Origin: a virus
Taxonomy: Duplodnaviria; Heunggongvirae; Uroviricota; Caudoviricetes
DNA length: 15,838 bases
Reading direction: 5' to 3' (one strand)
IMG/VR virus record: IMGVR_UViG_2724679293_000012
Shown here: one piece after another, positions 5,076-15,300 of the stretch
Layout: each line of letters begins with the position of its first letter
How positions within the stretch are numbered: position 1 is the stretch's first letter
Notes under the pieces: generated by a model
What the model was told of the DNA's origin: nothing
The model's database searches: none
The model's input: only the letters and a program-made list of their open reading frames with translations
Made by a program: the position numbers and the translations under genes

Positions 5076-5647
5076 ATGGCTGTTGTCTGTTCAGTTATCA
5101 TGGTTTGCTCCCCAATTAATATTTTTCTTGAAAAGGATACGTTGTCACTTAAGCCAGGCTCAGTTGTTCTGGCCACCAAATGCATCAGGGAGCTTTTCCT
5201 TATGCATTATGGCAAAGTTAAAATTGTNNNNNNNNNGAGGCCACGGATATGTTTCTTATGATGGCCTGCCTGTCTCTGTTTGAAACAGATGAACGGATGT
5301 CATTGTTTTTAAGTGGATGTTTATCCAGCATAAGTGTCAAAGTCAGGGCGATAATTCAGACAGATATATCAGCAAGCTGGACGCTTGGTGCGATTGCTCT
5401 ACAGTTGCATATGAGTGAGAGTTTGTTAAAGACAAAACTGAAAAATGAAGGGGGCATGTTCAGTCGCTTGTTGCTGGAAGAGCGGATGCGTGTTGCTGTA
5501 AATATGTTATGTTCCCGGTATGGATATGGACAGGCTGTAGCAGAAAAATGCGGTTATTCAAGCAGGTCCTACTTTATTTCTGTATTTCACCGCTATTATG
5601 GCTTCCCGCCAGACAGATATGTATCCAGGCAAGGGCTTGATTATTGA
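5076..5647 (+). CDS. AraC-family transcriptional regulator (Rns/CfaD/PerA-like), interrupted by an assembly gap
   Basis: C-terminal part (frame of 5249..5647) has a classic AraC HTH: SWTLGAIALQLHMSESLLKTKLKNEGGMFSRLLLEERMRVAVNMLCSRYGYGQAVAEKCGYSSRSYFISVFHRYYGFPP. N-terminal part (5076..5227, other frame) has ELFLMHYGKVKI, alignable with the Rns N-domain. The halves are separated by NNNNNNNNN, so length and frame across the gap are unknown. TATAAT at 5035-5040 upstream. Confidence 0.7.
5228..5236. other. Run of 9 N (assembly gap of unknown true length) inside the AraC-like gene
   Basis: Literal n characters in the sequence; reading frame differs on the two sides. Confidence 0.95.
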
Positions 5648-5675: not shown

Positions 5676-5751
5676 GGCCCTTTAGCTCAGTGGTGAGAGC
5701 GAGCGACTCATAATCGCCAGGTCGCTGGTTCAAATCCAGCAAGGGCCACCA
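5676..5751 (+). tRNA. ileZ: tRNA with CAU anticodon, tRNA-Ile2 (lysidine) type
   Basis: Cloverleaf folded by hand: acceptor GGCCCTT/AAGGGCC, D-arm GCTC..GAGC, anticodon loop CTCATAA, T-loop TTCAAAT, terminal CCA. Closely resembles E. coli ileX from memory. Confidence 0.85.
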
Positions 5752-5760
5752 TATCAGATA

Positions 5761-5837
5761 CCGCCATTAGCTCATCGGGACAGAGCGCCAGCCTTCGAAG
5801 CTGGCTGCGCGGGGTTCGGGTCCCCGATGGCGGTCCA
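5761..5837 (+). tRNA. argN: tRNA-Arg, anticodon read as UCG
   Basis: Cloverleaf: acceptor CCGCCAT/ATGGCGG, anticodon stem CCAGC/GCTGG with loop CTTCGAA, T-loop TTCGGGT, terminal CCA. Second member of the tRNA triplet. Confidence 0.8.
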
Positions 5838-5850
5838 TTATTGGTATTCA

Positions 5851-5927
5851 GCGTTGTTAGCTCAGCCGGACAGAGCAATTGCCTTCTAAGCAATCGGTCA
5901 CTGGTCCGAATCCAGTACAACGCGCCA
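5851..5927 (+). tRNA. argO: tRNA-Arg, anticodon UCU (reads rare AGA)
   Basis: Cloverleaf: acceptor GCGTTGT/ACAACGC, anticodon stem ATTGC/GCAAT with loop CTTCTAA (as in E. coli argU), T-arm ACTGG/CCAGT, terminal CCA. Confidence 0.85.
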
Positions 5928-6457: not shown

Positions 6458-7453
6458 ATGGCATTTAAACACTATGACGTGGTCAGGGCGGCGTCGCCGT
6501 CAGACCTTGCTGAACGACTGACACAAAAACTGAAGGAGGGGTGGCAGCCATTTGGCAGCCCGGTGGCCATCACGCCTTATACTCTGATGCAGGCCATTGC
6601 GGCGGAAGGTGATGTCACCACACCTGTGTTGGTGAAGCCGTCGGATGGAGAAGGCACAGTAATCAGCGCCACCAGAGACCCGGAGTATTACTTTGTTGTG
6701 GTTCTGGCGGGGCAGTCAAACAGCATGGCATATGGTGAAGGCCTTCCGCTGCCGGAGACATATGACCGTCCGGACCCGCGCATTAAGCAGCTGGCGCGTC
6801 GCAGTACGGTGACACCGGGCGGTGTCGCCTGTAAATATAACGACATCATTCCGGCGGACCATTGTCTGCATGATGTGCAGGACATGAGCCGCCTTAACCA
6901 TCCGAAAGCGGACCTGTCAAAGGGGCAGTACGGAACCGTGGGGCAGGGGCTGCATATCGCCAAAAAACTGCTGCCGTTTATACCGGCGAATGCGGGCATT
7001 CTGCTGGTTCCGTGCTGTCGTGGTGGTTCAGCGTTCACCACCGGAGCTGATGGCACATACAGTGACGCGAGTGGTGCTTCGGAGAATTCAACCCGCTGGG
7101 GTGTGGACAAGCCGCTGTATAAGGACCTTATCGGTCGAACAAAAGCAGCACTGAAGAAGAACCCGAAAAATGTGCTGCTTGCCGTGGTGTGGATGCAGGG
7201 GGAATTTGATTTTGGCGGTACGCCTGTAAATCACGCAGCACAGTTTGGTGCGCTGGTTGATAAATTCCGTGCAGACCTGGCGGATATGGCAGGTCAGTGC
7301 GTCGGTGGCTCTGCTGGCGGTGTTCCCTGGATATGTGGAGATACGACGTATTTCTGGAAGCAGAAGAACGAATCCACGTACCAGACGGTGTACGGCAGCT
7401 ATAAAAACAAAACGGAAAAGAATATCCATTTCGTACCGTTCATGACNCAGTAA
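6458..7453 (+). CDS. nanS: NanS-p-like prophage sialate O-acetylesterase, N-terminal part (frame broken by the tandem duplication)
   Basis: Strong SD GGGAGG before the ATG; SGNH/SASA-type motif VVLAGQSNSMAYGEGLP; position (after tRNAs, before lysis genes) matches nanS-p of Stx phages. The ORF stops at 7453 only because the 791 bp duplication (791 mod 3 = 2) shifts the frame. Confidence 0.7.
   Translation: MAFKHYDVVRAASPSDLAERLTQKLKEGWQPFGSPVAITPYTLMQAIAAEGDVTTPVLVKPSDGEGTVISATRDPEYYFVVVLAGQSNSMAYGEGLPLPETYDRPDPRIKQLARRSTVTPGGVACKYNDIIPADHCLHDVQDMSRLNHPKADLSKGQYGTVGQGLHIAKKLLPFIPANAGILLVPCCRGGSAFTTGADGTYSDASGASENSTRWGVDKPLYKDLIGRTKAALKKNPKNVLLAVVWMQGEFDFGGTPVNHAAQFGALVDKFRADLADMAGQCVGGSAGGVPWICGDTTYFWKQKNESTYQTVYGSYKNKTEKNIHFVPFMXQ
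6657..7447. repeat. Copy 1 of an exact ~791 bp direct tandem duplication inside the esterase gene
   Basis: Identical to 7448..8238 over the full length; antisense ORFs 6688..7110 and 7479..7901 in the track are identical at offset 791. Boundaries approximate within 2-3 nt. Confidence 0.9.
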
Positions 7454-8238
7454 TCAGCGCCACCAGAGACCCGGAGTATTACTTTGTTGTGGTTCTGGCG
7501 GGGCAGTCAAACAGCATGGCATATGGTGAAGGCCTTCCGCTGCCGGAGACATATGACCGTCCGGACCCGCGCATTAAGCAGCTGGCGCGTCGCAGTACGG
7601 TGACACCGGGCGGTGTCGCCTGTAAATATAACGACATCATTCCGGCGGACCATTGTCTGCATGATGTGCAGGACATGAGCCGCCTTAACCATCCGAAAGC
7701 GGACCTGTCAAAGGGGCAGTACGGAACCGTGGGGCAGGGGCTGCATATCGCCAAAAAACTGCTGCCGTTTATACCGGCGAATGCGGGCATTCTGCTGGTT
7801 CCGTGCTGTCGTGGTGGTTCAGCGTTCACCACCGGAGCTGATGGCACATACAGTGACGCGAGTGGTGCTTCGGAGAATTCAACCCGCTGGGGTGTGGACA
7901 AGCCGCTGTATAAGGACCTTATCGGTCGAACAAAAGCAGCACTGAAGAAGAACCCGAAAAATGTGCTGCTTGCCGTGGTGTGGATGCAGGGGGAATTTGA
8001 TTTTGGCGGTACGCCTGTAAATCACGCAGCACAGTTTGGTGCGCTGGTTGATAAATTCCGTGCAGACCTGGCGGATATGGCAGGTCAGTGCGTCGGTGGC
8101 TCTGCTGGCGGTGTTCCCTGGATATGTGGAGATACGACGTATTTCTGGAAGCAGAAGAACGAATCCACGTACCAGACGGTGTACGGCAGCTATAAAAACA
8201 AAACGGAAAAGAATATCCATTTCGTACCGTTCATGACC
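7448..8238. repeat. Copy 2 of the ~791 bp tandem duplication; junction base 7447 is N
   Basis: Same as above; the single ambiguous base sits exactly at the copy junction. Confidence 0.9.
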
Positions 8239-9186
8239 GATGAGAACGGGGTGAATGTGCCGACGAACAAACCGGAAGAAGACCCGGACATTCCGGGTAT
8301 CGGATATTACGGTTCGAAATGGCGTGACAGCTCAGCCACCTGGACGTCACAGGACAGGGCGAGCCATTTCAGCGCCTGGGCACGCCGTGGGATTATTTCC
8401 GACCGTCTGGCAACGGCGATTTTGCGCCATGCGGGAAGAGTGGCGCTAAACGCGGGGGCATCATCGACAGTATCAGAGGTGCGCCCGTCATCGCCTTCCG
8501 GTGCAGAAGCCACAGGCGTCACAACACTGCTCTCTTACCTTGCCAGCGAGTCAGAGGGAAGCCTGAAAGTACAGGGATGGTCAGCCAGTGGCGGCAGGGC
8601 AGAAGTGGTCAGCGATGCGGAGGGAACCGGAGGTAAGGCAGTGAAGCTGACCAAGGAAGCCGGTAAAAGCAGCTGGGTGCTGGAGTACGCCGCGGGCAAC
8701 GGTGCGGCTCTGTTACAGAAAGGGGGGCAGATTCGCTGCCGCTTTAAGGTTTCGGGAGCGCTGGCTGCGAACCAGTATGTTATGGCGTTTTACTGGCCGG
8801 TATCTTCACTGCCACAGGGCGTTGCCCTGACCGGAGACGGGGGGAATAACCTGCTGGCAGCGTTCTACATCCAGACAGATGCAAAAGACCTGAATGTGAT
8901 GTACCACAATGCGAAAGTGGCGACAAACAACCTGAAACTGGGAACCTTTGGCGCATTTGATAACGAATGGCATACGCTGGCTTTCCGCTTTGCCGGGAAT
9001 AACAGCCTTCAGGTGACGCCGGTTATTGATGGTCAGGATGGCACACCGTTCACGCTGACGCAGTCACCGGTCAGTGCATTTGCGGCGGATAAACTGCATG
9101 TGACAGACATTACCAGAGGTGCGACTTACCCGGTGCTGATTGACAGCATTGCGGTGGAAGTGAACAGCACAGACACTGCGGCATGA
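7489..9186 (+). CDS. nanS: NanS-p-like esterase, esterase core plus C-terminal carbohydrate-binding-like domain (frame is open back to about 7448)
   Basis: 565 aa ORF whose first ~250 aa repeat the end of the previous ORF. Collapsing the duplication gives one continuous in-frame ORF 6458..9186 of about 645 codons. Confidence 0.75.
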   Translation: MVLAGQSNSMAYGEGLPLPETYDRPDPRIKQLARRSTVTPGGVACKYNDIIPADHCLHDVQDMSRLNHPKADLSKGQYGTVGQGLHIAKKLLPFIPANAGILLVPCCRGGSAFTTGADGTYSDASGASENSTRWGVDKPLYKDLIGRTKAALKKNPKNVLLAVVWMQGEFDFGGTPVNHAAQFGALVDKFRADLADMAGQCVGGSAGGVPWICGDTTYFWKQKNESTYQTVYGSYKNKTEKNIHFVPFMTDENGVNVPTNKPEEDPDIPGIGYYGSKWRDSSATWTSQDRASHFSAWARRGIISDRLATAILRHAGRVALNAGASSTVSEVRPSSPSGAEATGVTTLLSYLASESEGSLKVQGWSASGGRAEVVSDAEGTGGKAVKLTKEAGKSSWVLEYAAGNGAALLQKGGQIRCRFKVSGALAANQYVMAFYWPVSSLPQGVALTGDGGNNLLAAFYIQTDAKDLNVMYHNAKVATNNLKLGTFGAFDNEWHTLAFRFAGNNSLQVTPVIDGQDGTPFTLTQSPVSAFAADKLHVTDITRGATYPVLIDSIAVEVNSTDTAA

Positions 9187-10110: not shown

Positions 10111-10644
10111 ATGAGCAGGAAACTCCGCTATGGTTTATCGGCTGCCGTTCTGGCGCTGATTGCCGCAGGTGCTTCTGCGCCTGAAATCCTCGACCAGTTT
10201 CTGGATGAAAAGGAAGGCAACCACACCACGGCATACCGTGATGGTGCGGGTATCTGGACCATCTGCCGTGGAGCCACCCGGGTGGATGGTAAGCCTGTTA
10301 TTCCTGGCATGAAGCTGTCGAAGGGGAAATGCGACCAGGTTAACGCCATTGAGCGTGATAAGGCGCTGGCATGGGTGGAGAAAAACATCAAAGTGCCACT
10401 GACTGAACCCCAGAAAGCGGGTATTGCGTCATTCTGTCCTTACAACATTGGCCCAGGTAAGTGTTTCCCGTCGACGTTTTATAAACGAATTAATGCAGGA
10501 GATCGAAAAGGTGCCTGCGAAGCGATTCGCTGGTGGATTAAGGACGGTGGCAGAGACTGCCGTATTCGCTCAAATAACTGTTATGGTCAGGTATCCCGTC
10601 GTGACCAGGAGAGCGCGCTGGCGTGCTGGGGAATCGACAGATAA
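10111..10644 (+). CDS. R: SAR endolysin (lysozyme with N-terminal signal-anchor-release domain, R21-like)
   Basis: 177 aa; hydrophobic N-terminus LSAAVLALIAAGASA then lysozyme core (EGNHTTAYRDGAGIWTICRGAT). Start is 4 nt after the holin stop. Confidence 0.9.
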   Translation: MSRKLRYGLSAAVLALIAAGASAPEILDQFLDEKEGNHTTAYRDGAGIWTICRGATRVDGKPVIPGMKLSKGKCDQVNAIERDKALAWVEKNIKVPLTEPQKAGIASFCPYNIGPGKCFPSTFYKRINAGDRKGACEAIRWWIKDGGRDCRIRSNNCYGQVSRRDQESALACWGIDR

Positions 10645-10917: not shown

Positions 10918-11613
10918 ATGAAAGAGATGATTTCTGTCGATCATGAAATATCCATGAGTAGTCTGGATTTTCTGAATAACATTATTAATCCAGCCCGGGC
11001 AGAAGCCGGAGAAGTCCCTCATGAACCGCGTAAGTTTCTTGCAAAAATTGAGGATGAGCTAGAGCTTGATGGAACCGGAAAAAAATTCCGGTTAAACAAT
11101 AACCAGACAAGAACGGCATACTATGATCTGGATTTTGACCAGATGATGCTCGTTGGCATGAGGGAGTCAAAGGCCGTTCGTCGTTCTGTGCTGGCAAGAC
11201 TCAAAGCGATGCATGGTATTCAGATCCCCCGGACTTTACCTGAGGCGTTGCGATTTGCGGCAAAACTGGCTGAACAGAAAGCAGTGCTGGAAAATCAACT
11301 GGCAATAGCAGCGCCGAAGGCTGAATTTGTTGATAACTATGTTGAAGCATCTGGTCTGATGGGATTCCGGGAAGTTGCTAAGTTACTCGGTATCAAAGAA
11401 ACCGATTTCCGGCTGTTTTTGTTGGAGAACGGAATAATGTATCGCCTCGCTGGAAAAATGACGCCTTACTCGCATCACCTGGATGCGGGGCGGTTTAGCG
11501 TGAAAACGGGCGAGGCGGGCAATGGTCATGCTTTTACGCAGGTTAAATTCACCCCAAAAGGTGTTCAGTGGATTGCTGGTCTGCTTGCTGCATGGAGAGC
11601 TACCGCAGCATGA
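10918..11613 (+). CDS. Phage antirepressor-like protein with C-terminal KilAC (ANT) domain
   Basis: 231 aa; C-terminal region (APKAEFVDNYVEASGLMGFREVAKLLGIKETDFRLFLLENGIMYRL...TPYSHHLDAGRF) matches the KilAC/ANT pattern; SD AAAGGA before the ATG; lies between R and Rz as in Stx-phage lysis regions. Confidence 0.7.
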   Translation: MKEMISVDHEISMSSLDFLNNIINPARAEAGEVPHEPRKFLAKIEDELELDGTGKKFRLNNNQTRTAYYDLDFDQMMLVGMRESKAVRRSVLARLKAMHGIQIPRTLPEALRFAAKLAEQKAVLENQLAIAAPKAEFVDNYVEASGLMGFREVAKLLGIKETDFRLFLLENGIMYRLAGKMTPYSHHLDAGRFSVKTGEAGNGHAFTQVKFTPKGVQWIAGLLAAWRATAA

Positions 11614-11850: not shown

Positions 11851-12309
11851 ATGCTTTCCGCGTTTACCGTTATTCTGCTGGTGGTCTGTAGTGCGCTGTG
11901 GCTGGCAACAGACCATTACCGTGATAACGCCATCACCGACAAAGCGCAGCGCGATAAAAAAGCCAGAGAGCTGGAGCTGGCAAACGCAACCATTACTGAC
12001 ATGCAGCAGCGCCAGCGTGATGTTGCTGCGCTTGATGCCAGATACTCAAGGGAATTAGCCGATGCGAGAGCTGAAAATGAAACTCTGCGTGCTGATGTTG
12101 CCGCTGGTCGTAAGCGCCTGCGGATCAACGCCACCTGCTCCGGTACCGTGCGTGAAGCCACCGGCACCTCCGGAATGGATAATGCAACCGGCCCCCGACT
12201 GGCAGACACCGCTGAACGGGATTATTTCACCCTCAGAGAGCGGTTGATGACAATGCAGAAGCAACTGGAAGGGGCGCAGGAATATATCCGCACTCAGTGC
12301 CTGAATTAA
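11851..12309 (+). CDS. Rz: Rz i-spanin (inner-membrane spanin subunit)
   Basis: Aligns along its length with lambda Rz (HYRDNAIT.KAQRDK.AREL.LANA.ITDMQ.RQRDVAALDA...RLADTAERDYFTLRERL.TMQKQLEG). Start taken at ATG 11851; an in-frame GTG at 11836 is an alternative. The track ORF starts upstream at 11743. Confidence 0.85.
   Translation: MLSAFTVILLVVCSALWLATDHYRDNAITDKAQRDKKARELELANATITDMQQRQRDVAALDARYSRELADARAENETLRADVAAGRKRLRINATCSGTVREATGTSGMDNATGPRLADTAERDYFTLRERLMTMQKQLEGAQEYIRTQCLN
12062..12247 (+). CDS. Rz1: Rz1 o-spanin lipoprotein, embedded in the +1 frame of Rz
   Basis: MRELKMKLCVLMLPLVVSACGS has the lipobox LVVSAC; proline-rich mature part matches lambda Rz1 (CVKPP.PP.WIMQP.PDWQTPLNGIISPSE). 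Fully nested within Rz. Confidence 0.8.
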   Translation: MRELKMKLCVLMLPLVVSACGSTPPAPVPCVKPPAPPEWIMQPAPDWQTPLNGIISPSESG

Positions 12310-12485: not shown

Positions 12486-13037
12486 ATGAACTATCCGACG
12501 ATTGTTAACGGTATTGATTTCCGCGATCTTGTTTTTGTGACAGGCAACGAGCCGGTGACGGATACCCGAAAGGTTGCCGTAGCATTTGGCAAAGAACACA
12601 AAGATGTATTGCGGAAAACAAGAGCCGTTGTTCAACAATGCTCAAAAGAATTTGCAGAGCGCAATTTTGCGCTTTGCTATGAAAACAATGAGTTACAGAA
12701 CGGTAAACCCCAGCCCATATATCGAATGACAAAAGACGGTTGGACGATGTTGGTATTTGGTTTTACGGGGAAAGCTGCTATGACCTTTAAGGAAGCGTAC
12801 ATTCAGGCTTTCAACTGGATGGCTGAGCTTATTCAGCAAGGTCTGGCGAATCTGGAGGCGGAGCGCAACGCTGTAATGCTGGAGTACATGAAAGAGAAAG
12901 ATGTCGCCAGTATGTCAGGTCGTTTGCTCAATCGCTGGGGCAGGGTGAAGAAGCCTCAGTTGCTGGCAAGGCTGGACAGGCTGGAGCAGCAGGGGCAGAT
13001 TGCGTTACCCGGATTTGATAAAGGCATTTCAGCCTGA
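12486..13037 (+). CDS. Phage regulatory protein Rha family
   Basis: 183 aa; N-terminal region (VFVTGNEPVTDTRKVAVAFGKEHKDVLRKTRAV) fits the Rha (Phage_pRha) signature. Confidence 0.7.
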   Translation: MNYPTIVNGIDFRDLVFVTGNEPVTDTRKVAVAFGKEHKDVLRKTRAVVQQCSKEFAERNFALCYENNELQNGKPQPIYRMTKDGWTMLVFGFTGKAAMTFKEAYIQAFNWMAELIQQGLANLEAERNAVMLEYMKEKDVASMSGRLLNRWGRVKKPQLLARLDRLEQQGQIALPGFDKGISA

Positions 13038-13078: not shown

Positions 13079-13376
13079 CCCGCATTAACAGAGACCGCAG
13101 CCCGACAGGGAGACTCCTCTACGAGAGTGTGCGGGATAATCAAAAACGATACACACCGGGGTTTACCGCGTTAACGGAGCGCGGCGTTGTCCCTCATGGT
13201 CGCTGGTCCGGTGCGATGGTGGAAGAAACCGGACGATGTGTTACCTCGCAAGCTCTGTGATGTCATGTGTCTGATTTGTGATTTAAGTCGGATAATTGTC
13301 GTTGCCATTAAGCAGAGGATTGATGACCGACAGGGTGGCATTGTTAGAATAAGACTTATTCTTATCTGTGCCGGGA

Positions 13377-13709
13377 ATGAAAATGAAAAGAAATCTTCCG
13401 TTAATTATTTTGTTGTCTTCTCTGGTTATGGGCTGTACGCAACATAAAACAGATATGCCCCGACAGTTGGTTAAGGCATTACCACAATATCCGGCCTATG
13501 CAGCGGCAAATTATATAAAGGGACGGGTTGATGTGAAGTTTGATATTGGTGCTGATGGTACTGTCACCCGAATTGAGTTTATCCGTTCAGAGCCGCACCA
13601 TTTGTTTGATGAGCAGGTTGTAAAGGCGATGGCAAAATGGCGATTTGAGAAGGACAGGCCGTGTAAAGGCGTGAAGAAAACGTTTATCTTTAGTCCTTCT
13701 GCACCCTGA
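13377..13709 (+). CDS. Lipoprotein with TonB C-terminal-like domain (moron candidate)
   Basis: Signal peptide plus lipobox (MKMKRNLPLIILLSSLVMGC), then a region matching the TonB C-terminal pattern (YIKGRVDVKFDIGADGTVTRIEFIRSEPHHLFDEQVVKAMAKWRFE). ATG 13377 chosen; the track ORF starts at GTG 13368. Confidence 0.65.
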   Translation: MKMKRNLPLIILLSSLVMGCTQHKTDMPRQLVKALPQYPAYAAANYIKGRVDVKFDIGADGTVTRIEFIRSEPHHLFDEQVVKAMAKWRFEKDRPCKGVKKTFIFSPSAP

Positions 13710-13840
13710 TTATTTCATCAGAAATTAATTATCACTCTGTTGTTATTCTGTACATCCCGGCAGGGTAAGTCTTGTTCCGTCGGATATGAAGATGAAATAT
13801 TGTTGGAGGACAGTGGGTACCTGCTCCTGTAACCGAACGT

Positions 13841-14041
13841 TCATTTCTCGTTATTTGTCATGCTGGCCGGGCGCAGATGCGTTGCATCTGTTGCCAGCCT
13901 TCTCCTGCAGGCTTCAATAACCCACGCTGAAAAGTTACCGGACCCTTTATGCTCAAGGGCTATGTTGATTTGTTCAATTATGTGATTGGGGAAACGGATA
14001 TTGCGGGTTGTGGTTCTGCGGGTCCGGTTTTTCGATGACAT
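13841..14041 (-). CDS. YlcI/YnfO-family small protein (DUF3950-like)
   Basis: 66 aa; MSSKNRTRRTTTRNIRFPNHIIEQINIALEHKGSGNFSAWVIEACRRRL resembles E. coli prophage ylcI/ynfO products (from memory); usual position just upstream of the terminase region, opposite strand. Confidence 0.6.
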   Translation of the reverse strand: MSSKNRTRRTTTRNIRFPNHIIEQINIALEHKGSGNFSAWVIEACRRRLATDATHLRPASMTNNEK

Positions 14042-14082: not shown

Positions 14083-14448
14083 ATGGCTGAGCTTCGTACA
14101 CTCCAGAGCAGAATCAAAACACTGAATACCCGACGGGTGAATATTCTGAAGGGGGAACAGCGTCGTGTCAGTGGCAGTGCCCGGGTTTCCCTCAAGCGTC
14201 ATATCTGGCTGAGGGATGCCGGGCAGTGCTGTCTCTGTGGTCGTGTGGTTGACCTCTGTGACAGTGAACTCGATCACCGCATTGCACTTCAGTTCGGTGG
14301 TGGTAATGAGGAGACGAATCTCTGGACGCTCTGCACCGAATGCCATCGACAAAAGTCTGCTCGTGAAGCGGCGGGTGGTATGCCGGACCCGACGCTGCCG
14401 GAGGTGTCCGGAGGTCATGGCAGGGCAGACGATATCATCGGACTGTGA
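14083..14448 (+). CDS. HNH endonuclease (terminase-associated, HK97-like packaging module)
   Basis: 121 aa with an HNH motif (CCLCGR...DHRIALQFGGGN...NLWTLCTECHRQK); placed directly upstream of the cos region and terS. Confidence 0.8.
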   Translation: MAELRTLQSRIKTLNTRRVNILKGEQRRVSGSARVSLKRHIWLRDAGQCCLCGRVVDLCDSELDHRIALQFGGGNEETNLWTLCTECHRQKSAREAAGGMPDPTLPEVSGGHGRADDIIGL

Positions 14449-14736: not shown

Positions 14737-15300
14737 GTGCTGACAACGCAAAAACGAAAATTTGCGCTGGCGCTCATGTCCGGGAAAAACAAAACAGCGT
14801 CAGCCATTGCCGCTGGTTATTCGGCGAAGACCGCCAGGGTTAAAGGCTCGCAGCTGGCAAAAGATCCGGAGGTGCTTGCGTTTATAGCCCGTAAACAATG
14901 CGAGACGGTGGAGGTGGATGAGGTTCCTGTTTACCGGCAGAAAAAATCAGAGCAGGAGGATAAACCCCGTCGCCGTGAGGCGGCTGCAATACCACAGCCG
15001 GACGAAAACAATCCGGAGATGCCACCGTCCGCGGTGATGTCTCCTGGTATTGAATATATGGAGGATGGTCTTCCCGATCCGGTGAAAGCGATGGGGCGTC
15101 TTCTGGTGGAGAACATTAATACCGACCCCAGGCTGGCGCTGGATGCGGCTTATAAGCTGGCGCAGTTCACGCACCATAAAAAAGGGGATGCCGGTAAAAA
15201 ATCGGCAAAAGGTGACGCGGCGAAAAAAGCGGCTAACCGTTTTGCGGTGCCACCACCACCCCGCCTGGTGGTGAATAATGATAATGAGGGCAACGGATGA
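14737..15300 (+). CDS. Terminase small subunit (P27-family-like)
   Basis: 187 aa; N-terminus (QKRKFALALMSGKNKTASAIAAGYSAKTARVKGSQLAKDPEV) fits the TerS P27 pattern; GTG start after GGGAGGAGG; stop overlaps the TerL start (ATGA). Confidence 0.7.
   Translation: MLTTQKRKFALALMSGKNKTASAIAAGYSAKTARVKGSQLAKDPEVLAFIARKQCETVEVDEVPVYRQKKSEQEDKPRRREAAAIPQPDENNPEMPPSAVMSPGIEYMEDGLPDPVKAMGRLLVENINTDPRLALDAAYKLAQFTHHKKGDAGKKSAKGDAAKKAANRFAVPPPPRLVVNNDNEGNG

What the first reader, a model, noticed from the sequence alone, without database searches (positions are those of the whole stretch)
13377..13709. Moron-like lipoprotein with a TonB C-terminal-type domain downstream of the lysis genes
It occupies the position of lambda bor-type morons and combines a lipoprotein signal (LVMGC) with a domain matching the TonB C-terminal pattern. 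A periplasm-facing lipoprotein mimicking the TonB C-domain could interfere with TonB-box-dependent receptors (FhuA, BtuB), giving superinfection exclusion against TonB-dependent phages or colicins, or altering iron uptake. This is a hypothesis.
Basis: partly seen in the sequence, partly recalled or inferred. Interest (0 to 1): 0.55.

Follow-up and report, generated by a model that had tools for sequence, protein, structure and literature searches.

The report
Prophage lipoprotein copying TonB's C-terminal domain
A small prophage gene, carried by up to about 30% of complete E. coli genomes, encodes an outer-membrane-type lipoprotein that is essentially the receptor-binding end of the host energy-coupling protein TonB and probably acts as a decoy blocking TonB-dependent entry of phages and colicins, though this has not been tested.

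Summary
It has a lipoprotein signal (LVMGC, Cys18, Thr at +2) and a 7-residue linker. The rest is a complete TonB C-terminal domain: Pfam TonB_C E=1.3e-14, and 39-42% identity to E. coli and Salmonella TonB. The AlphaFold model superposes on TonB bound to BtuB and FhuA at 1.0-1.2 Å. It has no TonB membrane anchor or proline-rich spacer, so it cannot transduce energy.

It belongs to a conserved phage and plasmid family, PHROG 1267, whose label "Rz-like spanin" does not fit. The gene usually sits just after Rz/Rz1 and lies beside bor/iss in phage 21-type prophages. It is under purifying selection (dN/dS 0.12). Clade A is in 414 and clade B in 1221 of 5426 complete E. coli genomes.

No functional study turned up in the searched literature. 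The best explanation is an outer-membrane-tethered TonB-box decoy acting as a dominant-negative. This is inferred from published work in which the overexpressed periplasmic domain of TonB inhibits TonB-dependent iron import. I rate it a new variant of a known kind, of moderate to high interest.

The parts
13383..13709 (+). CDS of the 108-aa lipoprotein with a TonB C-terminal domain. Stop codon included. An alternative upstream ATG lies at 13377.
   Evidence: ORF list and sequence. RefSeq CDS WP_000828068.1 maps to these coordinates. Pfam, NCBIfam and PHROG hits. dN/dS 0.12 against the phage 21 orthologue.
13383..13436 (+). Signal peptide with lipobox L-V-M-G-C. The Cys18 codon at 13434-13436 is the predicted acylated first residue of the mature protein.
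   Evidence: A PROSITE-type lipobox regex matches here and in nearly all family members, and +2 is T/S/A/V, never D. AF2 pLDDT is below 50 for residues 1-4 and 10-21, as expected for a cleaved signal.
13437..13457 (+). Short linker, residues 19-25 (TQHKTDM), between the lipid anchor and the folded domain.
   Evidence: The alignment to TonB begins at P26, equivalent to TonB P153. Linkers are 6-14 aa in other family members.
13458..13697 (+). TonB C-terminal domain, residues 26-105, with predicted elements beta(28-30), alpha1(38-42), beta1(47-55), beta2(61-70), alpha2(76-84) and beta3(94-103). It covers the part of TonB that is ordered in the BtuB and FhuA complexes.
   Evidence: PF03544 E=1.3e-14. 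PDB phmmer E about 1e-16. AF2 block-mean pLDDT 96-98 over residues 31-100. Foldseek: 2gsk_B rmsd 1.0 Å over 79 of 81 residues, and 2grx_C rmsd 1.2 Å over 76 of 78.
13323..13350 (+). Weak sigma-70 promoter-like site (ATGACC-16-TAGAAT) with an extended -10 (TGT-TAGAAT), 33 nt upstream of the start codon. It is a candidate for the gene's own promoter.
   Evidence: Consensus scan, 9 of 12 matches with TG. The block ATTGT(T/C)AGAATAAGAC is conserved in phage 21 within otherwise diverged sequence. Function is not shown.
13373..13376 (+). Shine-Dalgarno-like GGGA, 6 nt before the ATG at 13383.
   Evidence: Read directly from the sequence. The equivalent AGGA in phage 21 is annotated as an RBS.

Best explanation
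The gene encodes a small lipoprotein that is sorted to the periplasmic face of the outer membrane. [quoted passage not shown]

It lacks TonB's inner-membrane anchor and its periplasm-spanning proline-rich rod, so it cannot deliver proton-motive force. Tethered beside the transporters, it would occupy TonB boxes non-productively and compete with the scarce genuine TonB. That would act as a dominant-negative decoy.

Expected consequences are reduced irreversible adsorption of TonB-dependent phages (T1, phi80 and similar) and tolerance to TonB-dependent colicins, microcins and sideromycins. The cost would be lower siderophore and B12 uptake.

Shown here: the gene, the lipobox, the TonB-C sequence and fold, absence of the energy-transducing parts, family conservation, purifying selection and genomic position. 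Inferred: lipidation and outer-membrane localisation, TonB-box binding, the competitive effect, and the timing of expression (late transcript, own promoter in the lysogen, or both).
For: Domain identity:
- Searches give the sequence matches, and searches give the model, which superposes on TonB as seen in the BtuB and FhuA complexes.
- Identity is 39-42% to E. coli and Salmonella TonB C-terminal domains.
- P161, Y163, P164, F180, G186, F202, W213, Y215 (as Phe) and F230 are retained. Numbering is by my count from the TonB C-terminus.

Not an energy transducer:
- The full-length TonB equivalog models score 49-74 bits against cut-offs of 265-448 and match only the C-terminal part.
- The N-terminus is a lipoprotein signal, followed by a 7-aa linker.

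Outer-membrane targeting: the lipobox is conserved and +2 is never Asp, read against the established E. coli +2 rule.

Functional gene:
- dN/dS is 0.12 with dS 1.46 between the two E. coli clades.
- The two clades occur in 414 and 1221 of 5426 complete genomes, nearly all at 99% identity or more within a clade.

Autonomous cargo:
- The gene sits after Rz/Rz1 in very different phages, beside bor/iss, and alone between IS elements on Klebsiella IncF plasmids.
- It has lower GC than its flanks.
- A strong terminator follows the gene in L014.

Mechanistic precedent from papers:
[quoted passage not shown] Both are cited in PMC9841981 from Howard et al. 2001 and Tuckman & Osburne 1992.
- The outer-membrane inner-leaflet lipoproteins Llp and Cor block FhuA (bioRxiv 10.64898/2026.03.26.714494).
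Against: There is no experimental evidence for any phenotype, and none was found in nine literature searches.

Residues equivalent to TonB Q160 and R166 are not conserved: Q160 is L or Y, and R166 is Y. These positions are implicated in TonB-box or receptor contacts. Q160L and Q160K are themselves functional suppressor alleles of TonB (my own knowledge), so this is not disqualifying.

The 7-residue tether may be geometrically awkward. In TonB the N-terminus of the domain points toward the inner membrane. I could not check this without the complex coordinates.

A decoy would have to be abundant to compete at 10^4-10^5 transporters per cell, and the expression level is unknown.

Blocking iron and B12 uptake would be costly if the gene is expressed constitutively in lysogens.

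The promoter evidence is weak (9 of 12 matches), and no terminator was found after the gene in this window.

PADLOC has no matching defence model.
Confidence: 0.5

Rival explanations
1. It is a lysis-accessory or spanin-type protein, as the PHROG 1267 label 'Rz-like spanin' implies. On this view it is a late-expressed outer-membrane lipoprotein that takes part in, or times, outer-membrane disruption at the end of infection.
For: PHROG 1267 matches at E=5.7e-43 and carries that label. In many unrelated phages the gene directly follows Rz/Rz1 on the same strand. It will be transcribed as part of the late operon.
Against: The window already has a complete two-component spanin: Rz PF03245 E=2e-49, with embedded Rz1 PF06085 E=1.5e-19. 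So do the other loci. The protein is a folded TonB_C domain, not a short proline-rich o-spanin, and it has no C-terminal membrane helix as a unimolecular spanin would. In this window it is separated from Rz/Rz1 by a Rha gene. In phage 21 it is separated by the oppositely oriented bor. It also occurs on IncF plasmids with no lysis genes nearby. The PHROG label looks like annotation by position.
Confidence: 0.07
2. It is a lysogenic-conversion envelope factor of the Bor/Iss type. The TonB-like domain would be used for something other than TonB-box capture, for example binding peptidoglycan, Lpp or OmpA to stabilise the outer membrane, or contributing to serum or host-stress resistance.
For: It lies next to bor/iss in phage 21-type prophages, in a two-gene lipoprotein islet between the lysis and packaging genes. 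It is common in pathogenic lineages, including EHEC and the ATCC 11775 type strain. From my own knowledge, the TonB C-terminal domain has been reported to cross-link to Lpp and OmpA and to associate with peptidoglycan.
Against: The residues conserved across the family are those of the TonB signature around the TonB-box groove, namely the YP motif, the aromatic positions and beta3. The domain is most similar to TonB from the hosts' own order. No independent evidence for any other ligand was found here.
Confidence: 0.15
3. It is a decoy aimed mainly at incoming TonB-box-bearing toxins, the group B colicins and possibly phage proteins, rather than at the cell's own transporters. It would trap their N-terminal TonB box as it emerges at the periplasmic face. 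This is a sub-variant of the main model with a different primary target and little cost to nutrient uptake.
For: The fold and localisation evidence is the same as for the main model. Colicins B, D, Ia and M carry TonB boxes (PMC11658791). The most variable stretch between the two E. coli clades is the region equivalent to TonB R158-Q160, KAL against TVY. That would fit diversifying specificity.
Against: Nothing found here distinguishes this target from the transporters' TonB boxes. The binding mode, backbone beta-augmentation, is generic.
Confidence: 0.15
4. It is a non-functional captured fragment of a host tonB gene, as some database names suggest ('TonB fragment', 'partial tonB-like membrane protein').
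For: Records carry such names. Some genomes carry frameshifted or truncated versions, for example P0012 (130 member sequences) and P0010, P0013, P0018.
Against: dN/dS is 0.12 at near-saturated dS. A purpose-built lipoprotein signal replaces the TonB N-terminus and is conserved across members only 33-49% identical to one another. The intact gene is present in more than 1600 complete E. coli genomes, mostly at 99% identity or more within a clade. GC content (about 0.43) and 39-42% identity to host TonB exclude a recent capture.
Confidence: 0.03

Closest known systems
C-terminal domain of E. coli/Salmonella TonB (PDB 1U07, 1XX3, 8RD6; in complex: 2GSK with BtuB, 2GRX with FhuA)
   Same: The Pfam/TIGRFAM domain is the same, at 39-42% identity over 79 residues. 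The predicted fold is the same (rmsd 1.0-1.5 Å). The YP motif and all five aromatic positions are conserved. An intact beta3 is present, which is the strand that pairs with the TonB box (PMC11658791).
   Different: There is no N-terminal transmembrane anchor and no proline-rich rod, so no link to ExbB/ExbD is possible. The protein is predicted to be anchored to the opposite (outer) membrane by an N-terminal lipid. It is four residues shorter than TonB after beta3: the tail is SPSAP where TonB has KINGTTEIQ. Q160 is replaced by L or Y, and R166 by Y.
Overexpressed periplasmic domain of TonB (Howard, Herrmann, Stratilo & Braun 2001, J Bacteriol 183:5885; summarised in PMC9841981)
   Same: This is a TonB periplasmic or C-terminal domain uncoupled from the inner-membrane motor and present in the periplasm. 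It is reported to inhibit TBDT-mediated iron import, which is exactly the dominant-negative logic proposed here.
   Different: Those are laboratory constructs that are soluble in the periplasm. This is a natural, mobile-element-encoded protein, predicted to be lipid-anchored at the outer membrane, only about 40% identical to TonB, and evolving as its own family. I could not read the original paper because it is not held.
Superinfection-exclusion lipoproteins Llp (T5) and Cor (phi80, N15, HK022, T1)
   Same: [quoted passage not shown] They act on a TonB-dependent transporter (FhuA) from the periplasmic side to block phage entry (bioRxiv 10.64898/2026.03.26.714494).
   Different: There is no sign of homology. 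The Pfam scan hit only TonB_C and TonB_2, and no FhuA:Llp (8A60) chain appears in the top 50 Foldseek PDB matches. According to that preprint, Llp binds the FhuA plug and barrel allosterically and is receptor-specific. A TonB-domain decoy would act through the generic TonB box and could affect all TonB-dependent transporters and colicins.
Lambda Bor / Iss outer-membrane lipoprotein moron
   Same: The genomic niche between the lysis cassette and cos/terminase is the same. Both are small lipoproteins. The two genes are physically adjacent in phage 21 and in the ATCC 11775 prophage.
   Different: The sequence and fold are unrelated. Bor/Iss is on the opposite strand and is known for serum resistance, with no connection to TonB.
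Rz1-type o-spanins (the label carried by PHROG 1267)
   Same: Both are outer-membrane lipoproteins encoded in or next to the lysis cassette.
   Different: o-Spanins are short and proline-rich, lack a globular domain, and are encoded within or overlapping the i-spanin gene. Here a separate Rz/Rz1 pair exists, and this protein is a globular TonB_C domain.

Membership tests
TonB_C domain family (Pfam PF03544 / TIGR01352) | Profile-HMM score above the curated threshold. | tested here: met
   PF03544 scores 54.8 bits against a 24.6 cut-off, E=1.3e-14. TIGR01352 scores 54.5 bits against 27.1.
TonB_C domain family (Pfam PF03544 / TIGR01352) | Alpha/beta fold with a three-stranded sheet packed on two helices, superposable on solved TonB C-terminal domains. 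| tested here: met
   The AF2 model has block-mean pLDDT of 96-98 over residues 31-100. Foldseek top hits are all TonB C-terminal domains: 1u07, 2gsk_B (rmsd 1.0, TM 0.92) and 2grx_C (rmsd 1.2, TM 0.92). The MSA used for AF2 contained TonB homologues, so this is not independent of the sequence homology.
TonB_C domain family (Pfam PF03544 / TIGR01352) | Conserved YP motif and aromatic core residues (TonB Y163-P164, F180, F202, W213, Y215, F230). | tested here: met
   Y36-P37, F53, F75, W86, F88 and F103 align to these positions. They are conserved or nearly so across the lipoprotein family.
TonB energy transducer (full-length TonB; NCBIfam equivalogs NF008080-NF008084) | N-terminal inner-membrane anchor that couples to ExbB/ExbD. 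| tested here: not met
   The N-terminus is an 18-residue lipoprotein signal ending in LVMGC. The equivalog models match only their C-terminal ~80 positions and score 49-74 bits against cut-offs of 265-448.
TonB energy transducer (full-length TonB; NCBIfam equivalogs NF008080-NF008084) | Proline-rich periplasm-spanning spacer (Pfam TonB_N / PF16031 region). | tested here: not met
   Only 7 residues (TQHKTDM) separate Cys18 from the domain. There is no PF16031 hit, whereas true TonB fragments recovered carry it.
Bacterial outer-membrane lipoproteins (signal peptidase II substrates, Lol-sorted) | Signal peptide with a lipobox [LVI][ASTVI...][GAS]-C near residues 15-35 and a positively charged n-region. 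| tested here: met
   A PROSITE-type pattern, written from memory, matches the window protein (LVMGC, Cys18, K2 and R3) and 15 of the other 18 family members and relatives tested. One more (P0127) has a clear LSAC box. Two (P0225, P0199) have ordinary signal peptides instead.
Bacterial outer-membrane lipoproteins (signal peptidase II substrates, Lol-sorted) | No Asp at +2, the Lol-avoidance or inner-membrane retention signal. | tested here: met
   +2 is Thr here. It is S/T/A in the members scanned with the lipobox pattern and V in the L012-L017 members. It is never D.
Bacterial outer-membrane lipoproteins (signal peptidase II substrates, Lol-sorted) | Actual acylation and outer-membrane localisation. 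| not testable with these tools
   This needs globomycin sensitivity, palmitate labelling and membrane fractionation.
Spanins (PHROG 1267 label 'Rz-like spanin') | An o-spanin is a short proline-rich lipoprotein encoded within or overlapping its i-spanin partner. A u-spanin is a lipoprotein with a C-terminal transmembrane helix. | tested here: not met
   A separate Rz (PF03245) and embedded Rz1 (PF06085) lie at 11851-12309 and 12062-12247. This gene starts 1074 bp after the Rz stop, beyond a Rha gene. The protein is a globular TonB_C domain whose C-terminus, FIFSPSAP, is not a membrane helix.
Llp/Cor FhuA-blocking exclusion lipoproteins | Sequence or fold relatedness to Llp/Cor. | tested here: not met
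   Pfam at E<=1 gave only TonB_C and TonB_2. PHROG hits were 1267 and 34172 plus weak, unrelated families. The top 50 Foldseek PDB matches contain no FhuA:Llp (8A60) chain.
Llp/Cor FhuA-blocking exclusion lipoproteins | Blocks phage adsorption or injection through a TonB-dependent transporter. | not testable with these tools
   This requires plating and adsorption assays.
Moron (autonomous promoter-gene-terminator cargo in a phage late region) | Own promoter and terminator, composition distinct from neighbours, and patchy distribution among related phages. | tested here: inconclusive
   GC dips to 0.41-0.45 against 0.53-0.57 in the flanks. Distribution is patchy: 15 of 50,697 phage records, many prophages, and plasmids. 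There is a weak extended -10 promoter-like site, partly conserved in phage 21. No terminator was found here, but a strong one follows the L014 orthologue. No expression data are available.

The most novel reading that the evidence does not exclude
[quoted passage not shown] This mimic would act as a general dominant-negative inhibitor of TonB-dependent transport. One small gene would then give cross-protection against TonB-dependent phages, group B colicins, microcins and sideromycin-type antibiotics (albomycin and possibly cefiderocol-like drugs). It would also lower iron uptake. In Stx1a phages that could feed back on Fur-regulated genes, including stx1.
Probability: 0.4. Interest if true: 0.75.

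Novelty: new variant of a known kind. Interest (0 to 1): 0.6.

Why it matters
If the decoy model is right, this would be a natural example of a mobile element disabling a host energy-coupling system by copying its receptor-binding domain and tethering it to the other membrane. That is a different route to the outcome achieved by Llp and Cor, and potentially far broader, because it could affect every TonB-dependent transporter and toxin.

The gene is very common: clade A is in 414 and clade B in 1221 of 5426 complete E. coli genomes. It occurs in EHEC Stx1a phages, in classic phage 21, next to the virulence marker iss, and on Klebsiella IncF plasmids. It is either unannotated or mislabelled, for example as 'Rz-like spanin' or 'TonB fragment'.

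It could influence phage-therapy host range, colicin and microcin competition in the gut, susceptibility to siderophore-conjugated antibiotics, and iron-regulated virulence. It can be tested with standard plating, colicin and transport assays. Even if the decoy model fails, correcting the PHROG 1267 label is useful.

Tried and rejected
1. Fur-box regulation. The sequence around the putative -10 matches the 19-bp Fur consensus at only 11-12 of 19 positions. The window holds 73 such matches against about 37 expected in mononucleotide shuffles, so this is not evidence.

2. The perfect 8-1-8 palindrome at 13346-13362 as an operator. Its right half is deleted in phage 21, so it is not a conserved element of the family.

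3. Known defence systems. PADLOC gave nothing meaningful.

4. Viral structural relatives. BFVD gave no match at E<=0.001.

5. The spanin reading implied by the PHROG label was rejected (see rivals).

6. The pseudogene or captured-fragment reading was rejected on dN/dS and the conserved lipobox.

7. Literature. Nine full-text searches found no functional study of this protein. Candidate papers that mention TonB with prophages turned out to be irrelevant. The key precedent paper, PMC99666, is not held and is cited second-hand.

8. The search for related loci with the broad family alignment failed because no stretch was conserved enough. A narrower alignment found only 6 loci among species-representative genomes, in Raoultella, Erwinia and more distant TonB_C proteins, so the host range is under-sampled.

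9. A model of the complex with a TonB box could not be run, because chimeric or foreign sequences are not accepted by the structure tool.
Full report
**1. What is there**

The window is part of a lambdoid prophage or phage of enterohaemorrhagic E. coli. Positions 13100-14000 are 100% identical to Escherichia phage Lys8385Vzw, to four Stx1a-converting phages, and to many O103, O111 and O26-type chromosomes.

Gene order around the finding is as follows (RefSeq annotation of an identical stretch):

| Coordinates | Strand | Gene |
|---|---|---|
| 10111-10644 | + | lysozyme |
| 10918-11613 | + | antirepressor (KilAC domain) |
| 11851-12309 | + | Rz |
| 12062-12247 | + | Rz1, embedded in Rz |
| 12486-13037 | + | Rha-family regulator |
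| 13383-13709 | + | the finding |
| 13841-14041 | - | YlcI/YnfO (DUF3950) |
| 14083-14448 | + | HNH endonuclease |
| 14737-15300 | + | terminase small subunit |

The ORF has two in-frame ATGs, at 13377 and 13383. The second is the likely start. It has a GGGA Shine-Dalgarno 6 nt upstream, RefSeq uses it, and the first ATG does not exist in the phage 21 orthologue.

**2. Anatomy of the protein (108 aa)**

*Signal peptide.* Residues 1-18, MKRNLPLIILLSSLVMGC, form a lipoprotein signal peptide. They fit a PROSITE-type lipobox pattern (written from memory), with Cys18 as the lipidated residue and Thr at +2. [quoted passage not shown]

*Linker.* Residues 19-25 form a short linker.

*TonB C-terminal domain.* Residues 26-105 are a complete TonB C-terminal domain.
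- Pfam TonB_C gives E=1.3e-14, well above the gathering threshold, and TIGR01352 gives E=1.1e-14.
- phmmer against PDB returns only TonB C-terminal domains, at E about 1e-15 to 1e-16, aligned gap-free over residues 28-106.
- Identity to the E. coli and Salmonella TonB C-terminal domains is 39-42%.

*Structure prediction.* An AlphaFold2 model was built on a 30-sequence alignment of the family plus enterobacterial TonB fragments. Its block-mean pLDDT is 96-98 over residues 31-100. Foldseek places it on TonB C-terminal domains. The best superpositions are TonB as seen bound to BtuB (2gsk_B: rmsd 1.0 Å, 79 of 81 residues, TM 0.92) and to FhuA (2grx_C: rmsd 1.2 Å, TM 0.92). The phage protein therefore corresponds almost exactly to the part of TonB that is ordered in the transporter complexes.

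*Conserved and changed residues.* In TonB numbering (my count from the C-terminus), the family keeps P161, Y163-P164, F180, G186, F202, W213, Y215 (as Phe) and F230, together with beta3. Q160 is L in this clade and Y in the phage 21 clade, and R166 is Y. After beta3 the tail is SPSAP rather than TonB's KINGTTEIQ.

**3. What it is not**

- *Not TonB.* The full-length TonB equivalog models match only with their last ~80 positions and score far below their cut-offs. There is no inner-membrane anchor and no proline-rich spacer. The protein therefore cannot connect to ExbB/ExbD or transmit energy.
- *Not a spanin.* PHROG 1267, to which it and all relatives belong (E=5.7e-43 here), is labelled 'Rz-like spanin'. 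However, the window and all other loci examined already contain a canonical Rz/Rz1 pair. This protein is globular and has no C-terminal membrane helix.
- *Not a decaying gene fragment.* Between the two E. coli clades (72% amino-acid identity) dN/dS is 0.12 at dS 1.46. The lipobox is conserved in relatives only 33-49% identical.

**4. The family and its distribution**

An exhaustive HMMER search found a set of proteins of about 107-133 aa with the same architecture at 33-49% identity, with a lipoprotein or, rarely, an ordinary signal peptide followed by TonB_C. Beyond these come thousands of ordinary TonB_C-containing proteins.

In IMG/VR contigs, relatives sit immediately after Rz/Rz1 and before the packaging genes in several unrelated lysis-cassette types. 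The same holds in a Klebsiella phage and in a prophage within a Salmonella plasmid.

In classic phage 21 the orthologue is annotated 'TonB C-terminal domain protein' (CPT_21_73). It follows S21, R21, Rz, Rz1 and the oppositely oriented bor, just before cosQ. In the E. coli type strain ATCC 11775 the arrangement is essD-rrrD-rzpD-iss(-)-[TonB family protein](+)-terminase.

Prevalence:
- The window's clade is in 414 of 5426 complete E. coli genomes.
- The phage 21 clade is in 1221 of 5426.
- Nearly all copies are at 99% identity or more within a clade. Overlap between the two sets was not determined, so the total is at most about 30% of genomes.
- Only 15 of 50,697 deposited phage genomes carry a member.

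A member also occurs on many Klebsiella IncFIB/IncFII plasmids as a lone gene flanked by IS elements, with no phage genes nearby. This points to cargo with an autonomous benefit to the cell rather than a component of the lysis machinery.

**5. Expression signals**

The gene is on the late-operon strand between the lysis and terminase genes, so it should be transcribed late in lytic growth.

A weak promoter-like site with an extended -10 (TGT-TAGAAT, 13342-13350) lies 33 nt upstream. This short block is conserved in phage 21 within otherwise diverged sequence.

GC content dips to 0.41-0.45 against 0.53-0.57 in the flanks. No intrinsic terminator follows the gene here, but a strong one follows the orthologue in L014. 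Moron-type autonomous expression is thus possible but unproven.

A Fur box was considered and rejected. A perfect 8-1-8 palindrome overlapping the -10 is not conserved.

**6. Most likely mechanism (inferred)**

[quoted passage not shown] According to PMC9841981, which cites Howard et al. 2001 and Tuckman & Osburne 1992:
- a TonB-box pentapeptide reduces TonB-mediated colicin killing and phi80 infection.

Phage T5 Llp and prophage Cor proteins show that small lipoproteins in the inner leaflet of the outer membrane can shut a TonB-dependent transporter from the periplasmic side (bioRxiv 10.64898/2026.03.26.714494).

Taken together, the best-supported model is a TonB-box decoy. This is a TonB C-terminal domain tethered beside the transporters, which binds their TonB boxes, or those of incoming group B colicins, without being able to pull. 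It would compete with the scarce authentic TonB.

Predicted phenotypes are exclusion of TonB-dependent phages and tolerance to TonB-dependent colicins, microcins and sideromycins, with reduced siderophore and B12 uptake.

Caveats:
- The Q160 and R166 equivalents are not conserved.
- The 7-residue tether could be geometrically limiting.
- Expression level and timing are unknown.
- Constitutive expression would cost iron uptake.

I put about 0.5 on this mechanism. That includes a sub-variant in which the main targets are toxin TonB boxes, which is listed separately among the rivals. The domain and lipoprotein identification is near certain.

**7. Comparison with known systems, and novelty**

It works like an overexpressed periplasmic TonB domain and, in outcome, like Llp and Cor. 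It is a member of the TonB_C domain family. It is not a member of the TonB energy-transducer, spanin or Llp/Cor families (see the membership table).

The gene is present in databases under generic or misleading names. I found no functional study in nine literature searches.

I rate it a new variant of a known kind: a phage-encoded outer-membrane lipoprotein acting on TonB-dependent uptake, but by mimicry of the host transducer. It is clearly testable, and its prevalence gives it practical relevance for phage host range, colicin ecology, siderophore-antibiotic uptake and iron-regulated virulence.

Noticed in passing
window 6657-6956 and 7448-7747 (ORFs 6458-7453 and 7489-9186): There is a perfect direct repeat with 791-bp spacing inside a NanS-p-like sialate O-acetylesterase gene (DUF1737 + SASA + DUF6645). 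The spacing is not a multiple of 3, and the gene is split into two ORFs that each carry a SASA segment. This is either a real tandem duplication that disrupts the gene or an assembly artefact.
   Followed up: partly
window 13346-13362: A perfect 8-1-8 palindrome, AGAATAAG-A-CTTATTCT, overlaps the -10-like TAGAAT just upstream of the gene. Its right arm is deleted in phage 21, so it is clade-specific. It could be an operator for an unknown regulator or a chance occurrence.
   Followed up: partly
window 13537->13510 (- strand); L018 4155->4128: A strong antisense promoter-like site lies inside the coding sequence: TTCACA-16-TATAAT, 11 of 12 matches. The same gene position in phage 21 carries TTAACC-16-TATAAT with TG. 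It overlaps the conserved ANYIKG codons, so the conservation may simply follow from the protein sequence.
   Followed up: no
window 13208-13260; L018 3846-3983: The conserved block CCGGTGCGATGGTGGAAGAAAC marks the start of a small ORF upstream of the gene. In phage 21 this is the annotated 45-aa hypothetical protein CPT_21_72. In the window it is cut to 14 codons (MVEETGRCVTSQAL*). Its function is unknown, and it may be part of the same cargo unit.
   Followed up: partly
PHROG 1267 (all family members: window protein, P0007, P0122, P0124 and others): This PHROG is annotated 'Rz-like spanin' in the lysis category. Its members are TonB_C lipoproteins that sit next to genuine Rz/Rz1 pairs. The label looks like annotation by position and will propagate into phage annotations.
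   Followed up: yes
L027 5956-6291 and 3634-3780 (Klebsiella pneumoniae IncFIB/IncFII plasmid pKP43_vir_amr): A 111-aa family member (MKTGFIGTLFLCGMLLGCSS...) sits alone between IS elements on a virulence/AMR plasmid. A second short 'TonB family protein' fragment lies 2.3 kb upstream. About 43 Klebsiella plasmid records matched the family protein in the tblastn search, though a few of these hits are authentic tonB.
   Followed up: partly
window 13662-13664 (codon 94) and family proteins P0001, P0007, P0009: Position 94, in the loop before beta3, is Cys in the window protein and in P0007 but Arg in the large cluster P0001 and in P0009. It is the only Cys in the mature domain apart from the lipidated one, so it could form intermolecular disulfides in the periplasm.
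   Followed up: no
proteins P0010, P0012, P0013, P0018, P0019, P0021 (E. coli, phage 21 clade): Several recurrent variants have frameshifts that replace beta3 and the C-terminus. P0012 alone stands for 130 member sequences. The gene is therefore being inactivated in part of the population.
   Followed up: no
window 5249-5647 and 5676-5927: A 132-aa AraC-family HTH protein is encoded immediately upstream of a tRNA-Met/Arg/Arg cluster in the late-region leader. Prophage-borne AraC-like regulators in EHEC can act on host virulence or acid-resistance genes. This was not examined.
   Followed up: no
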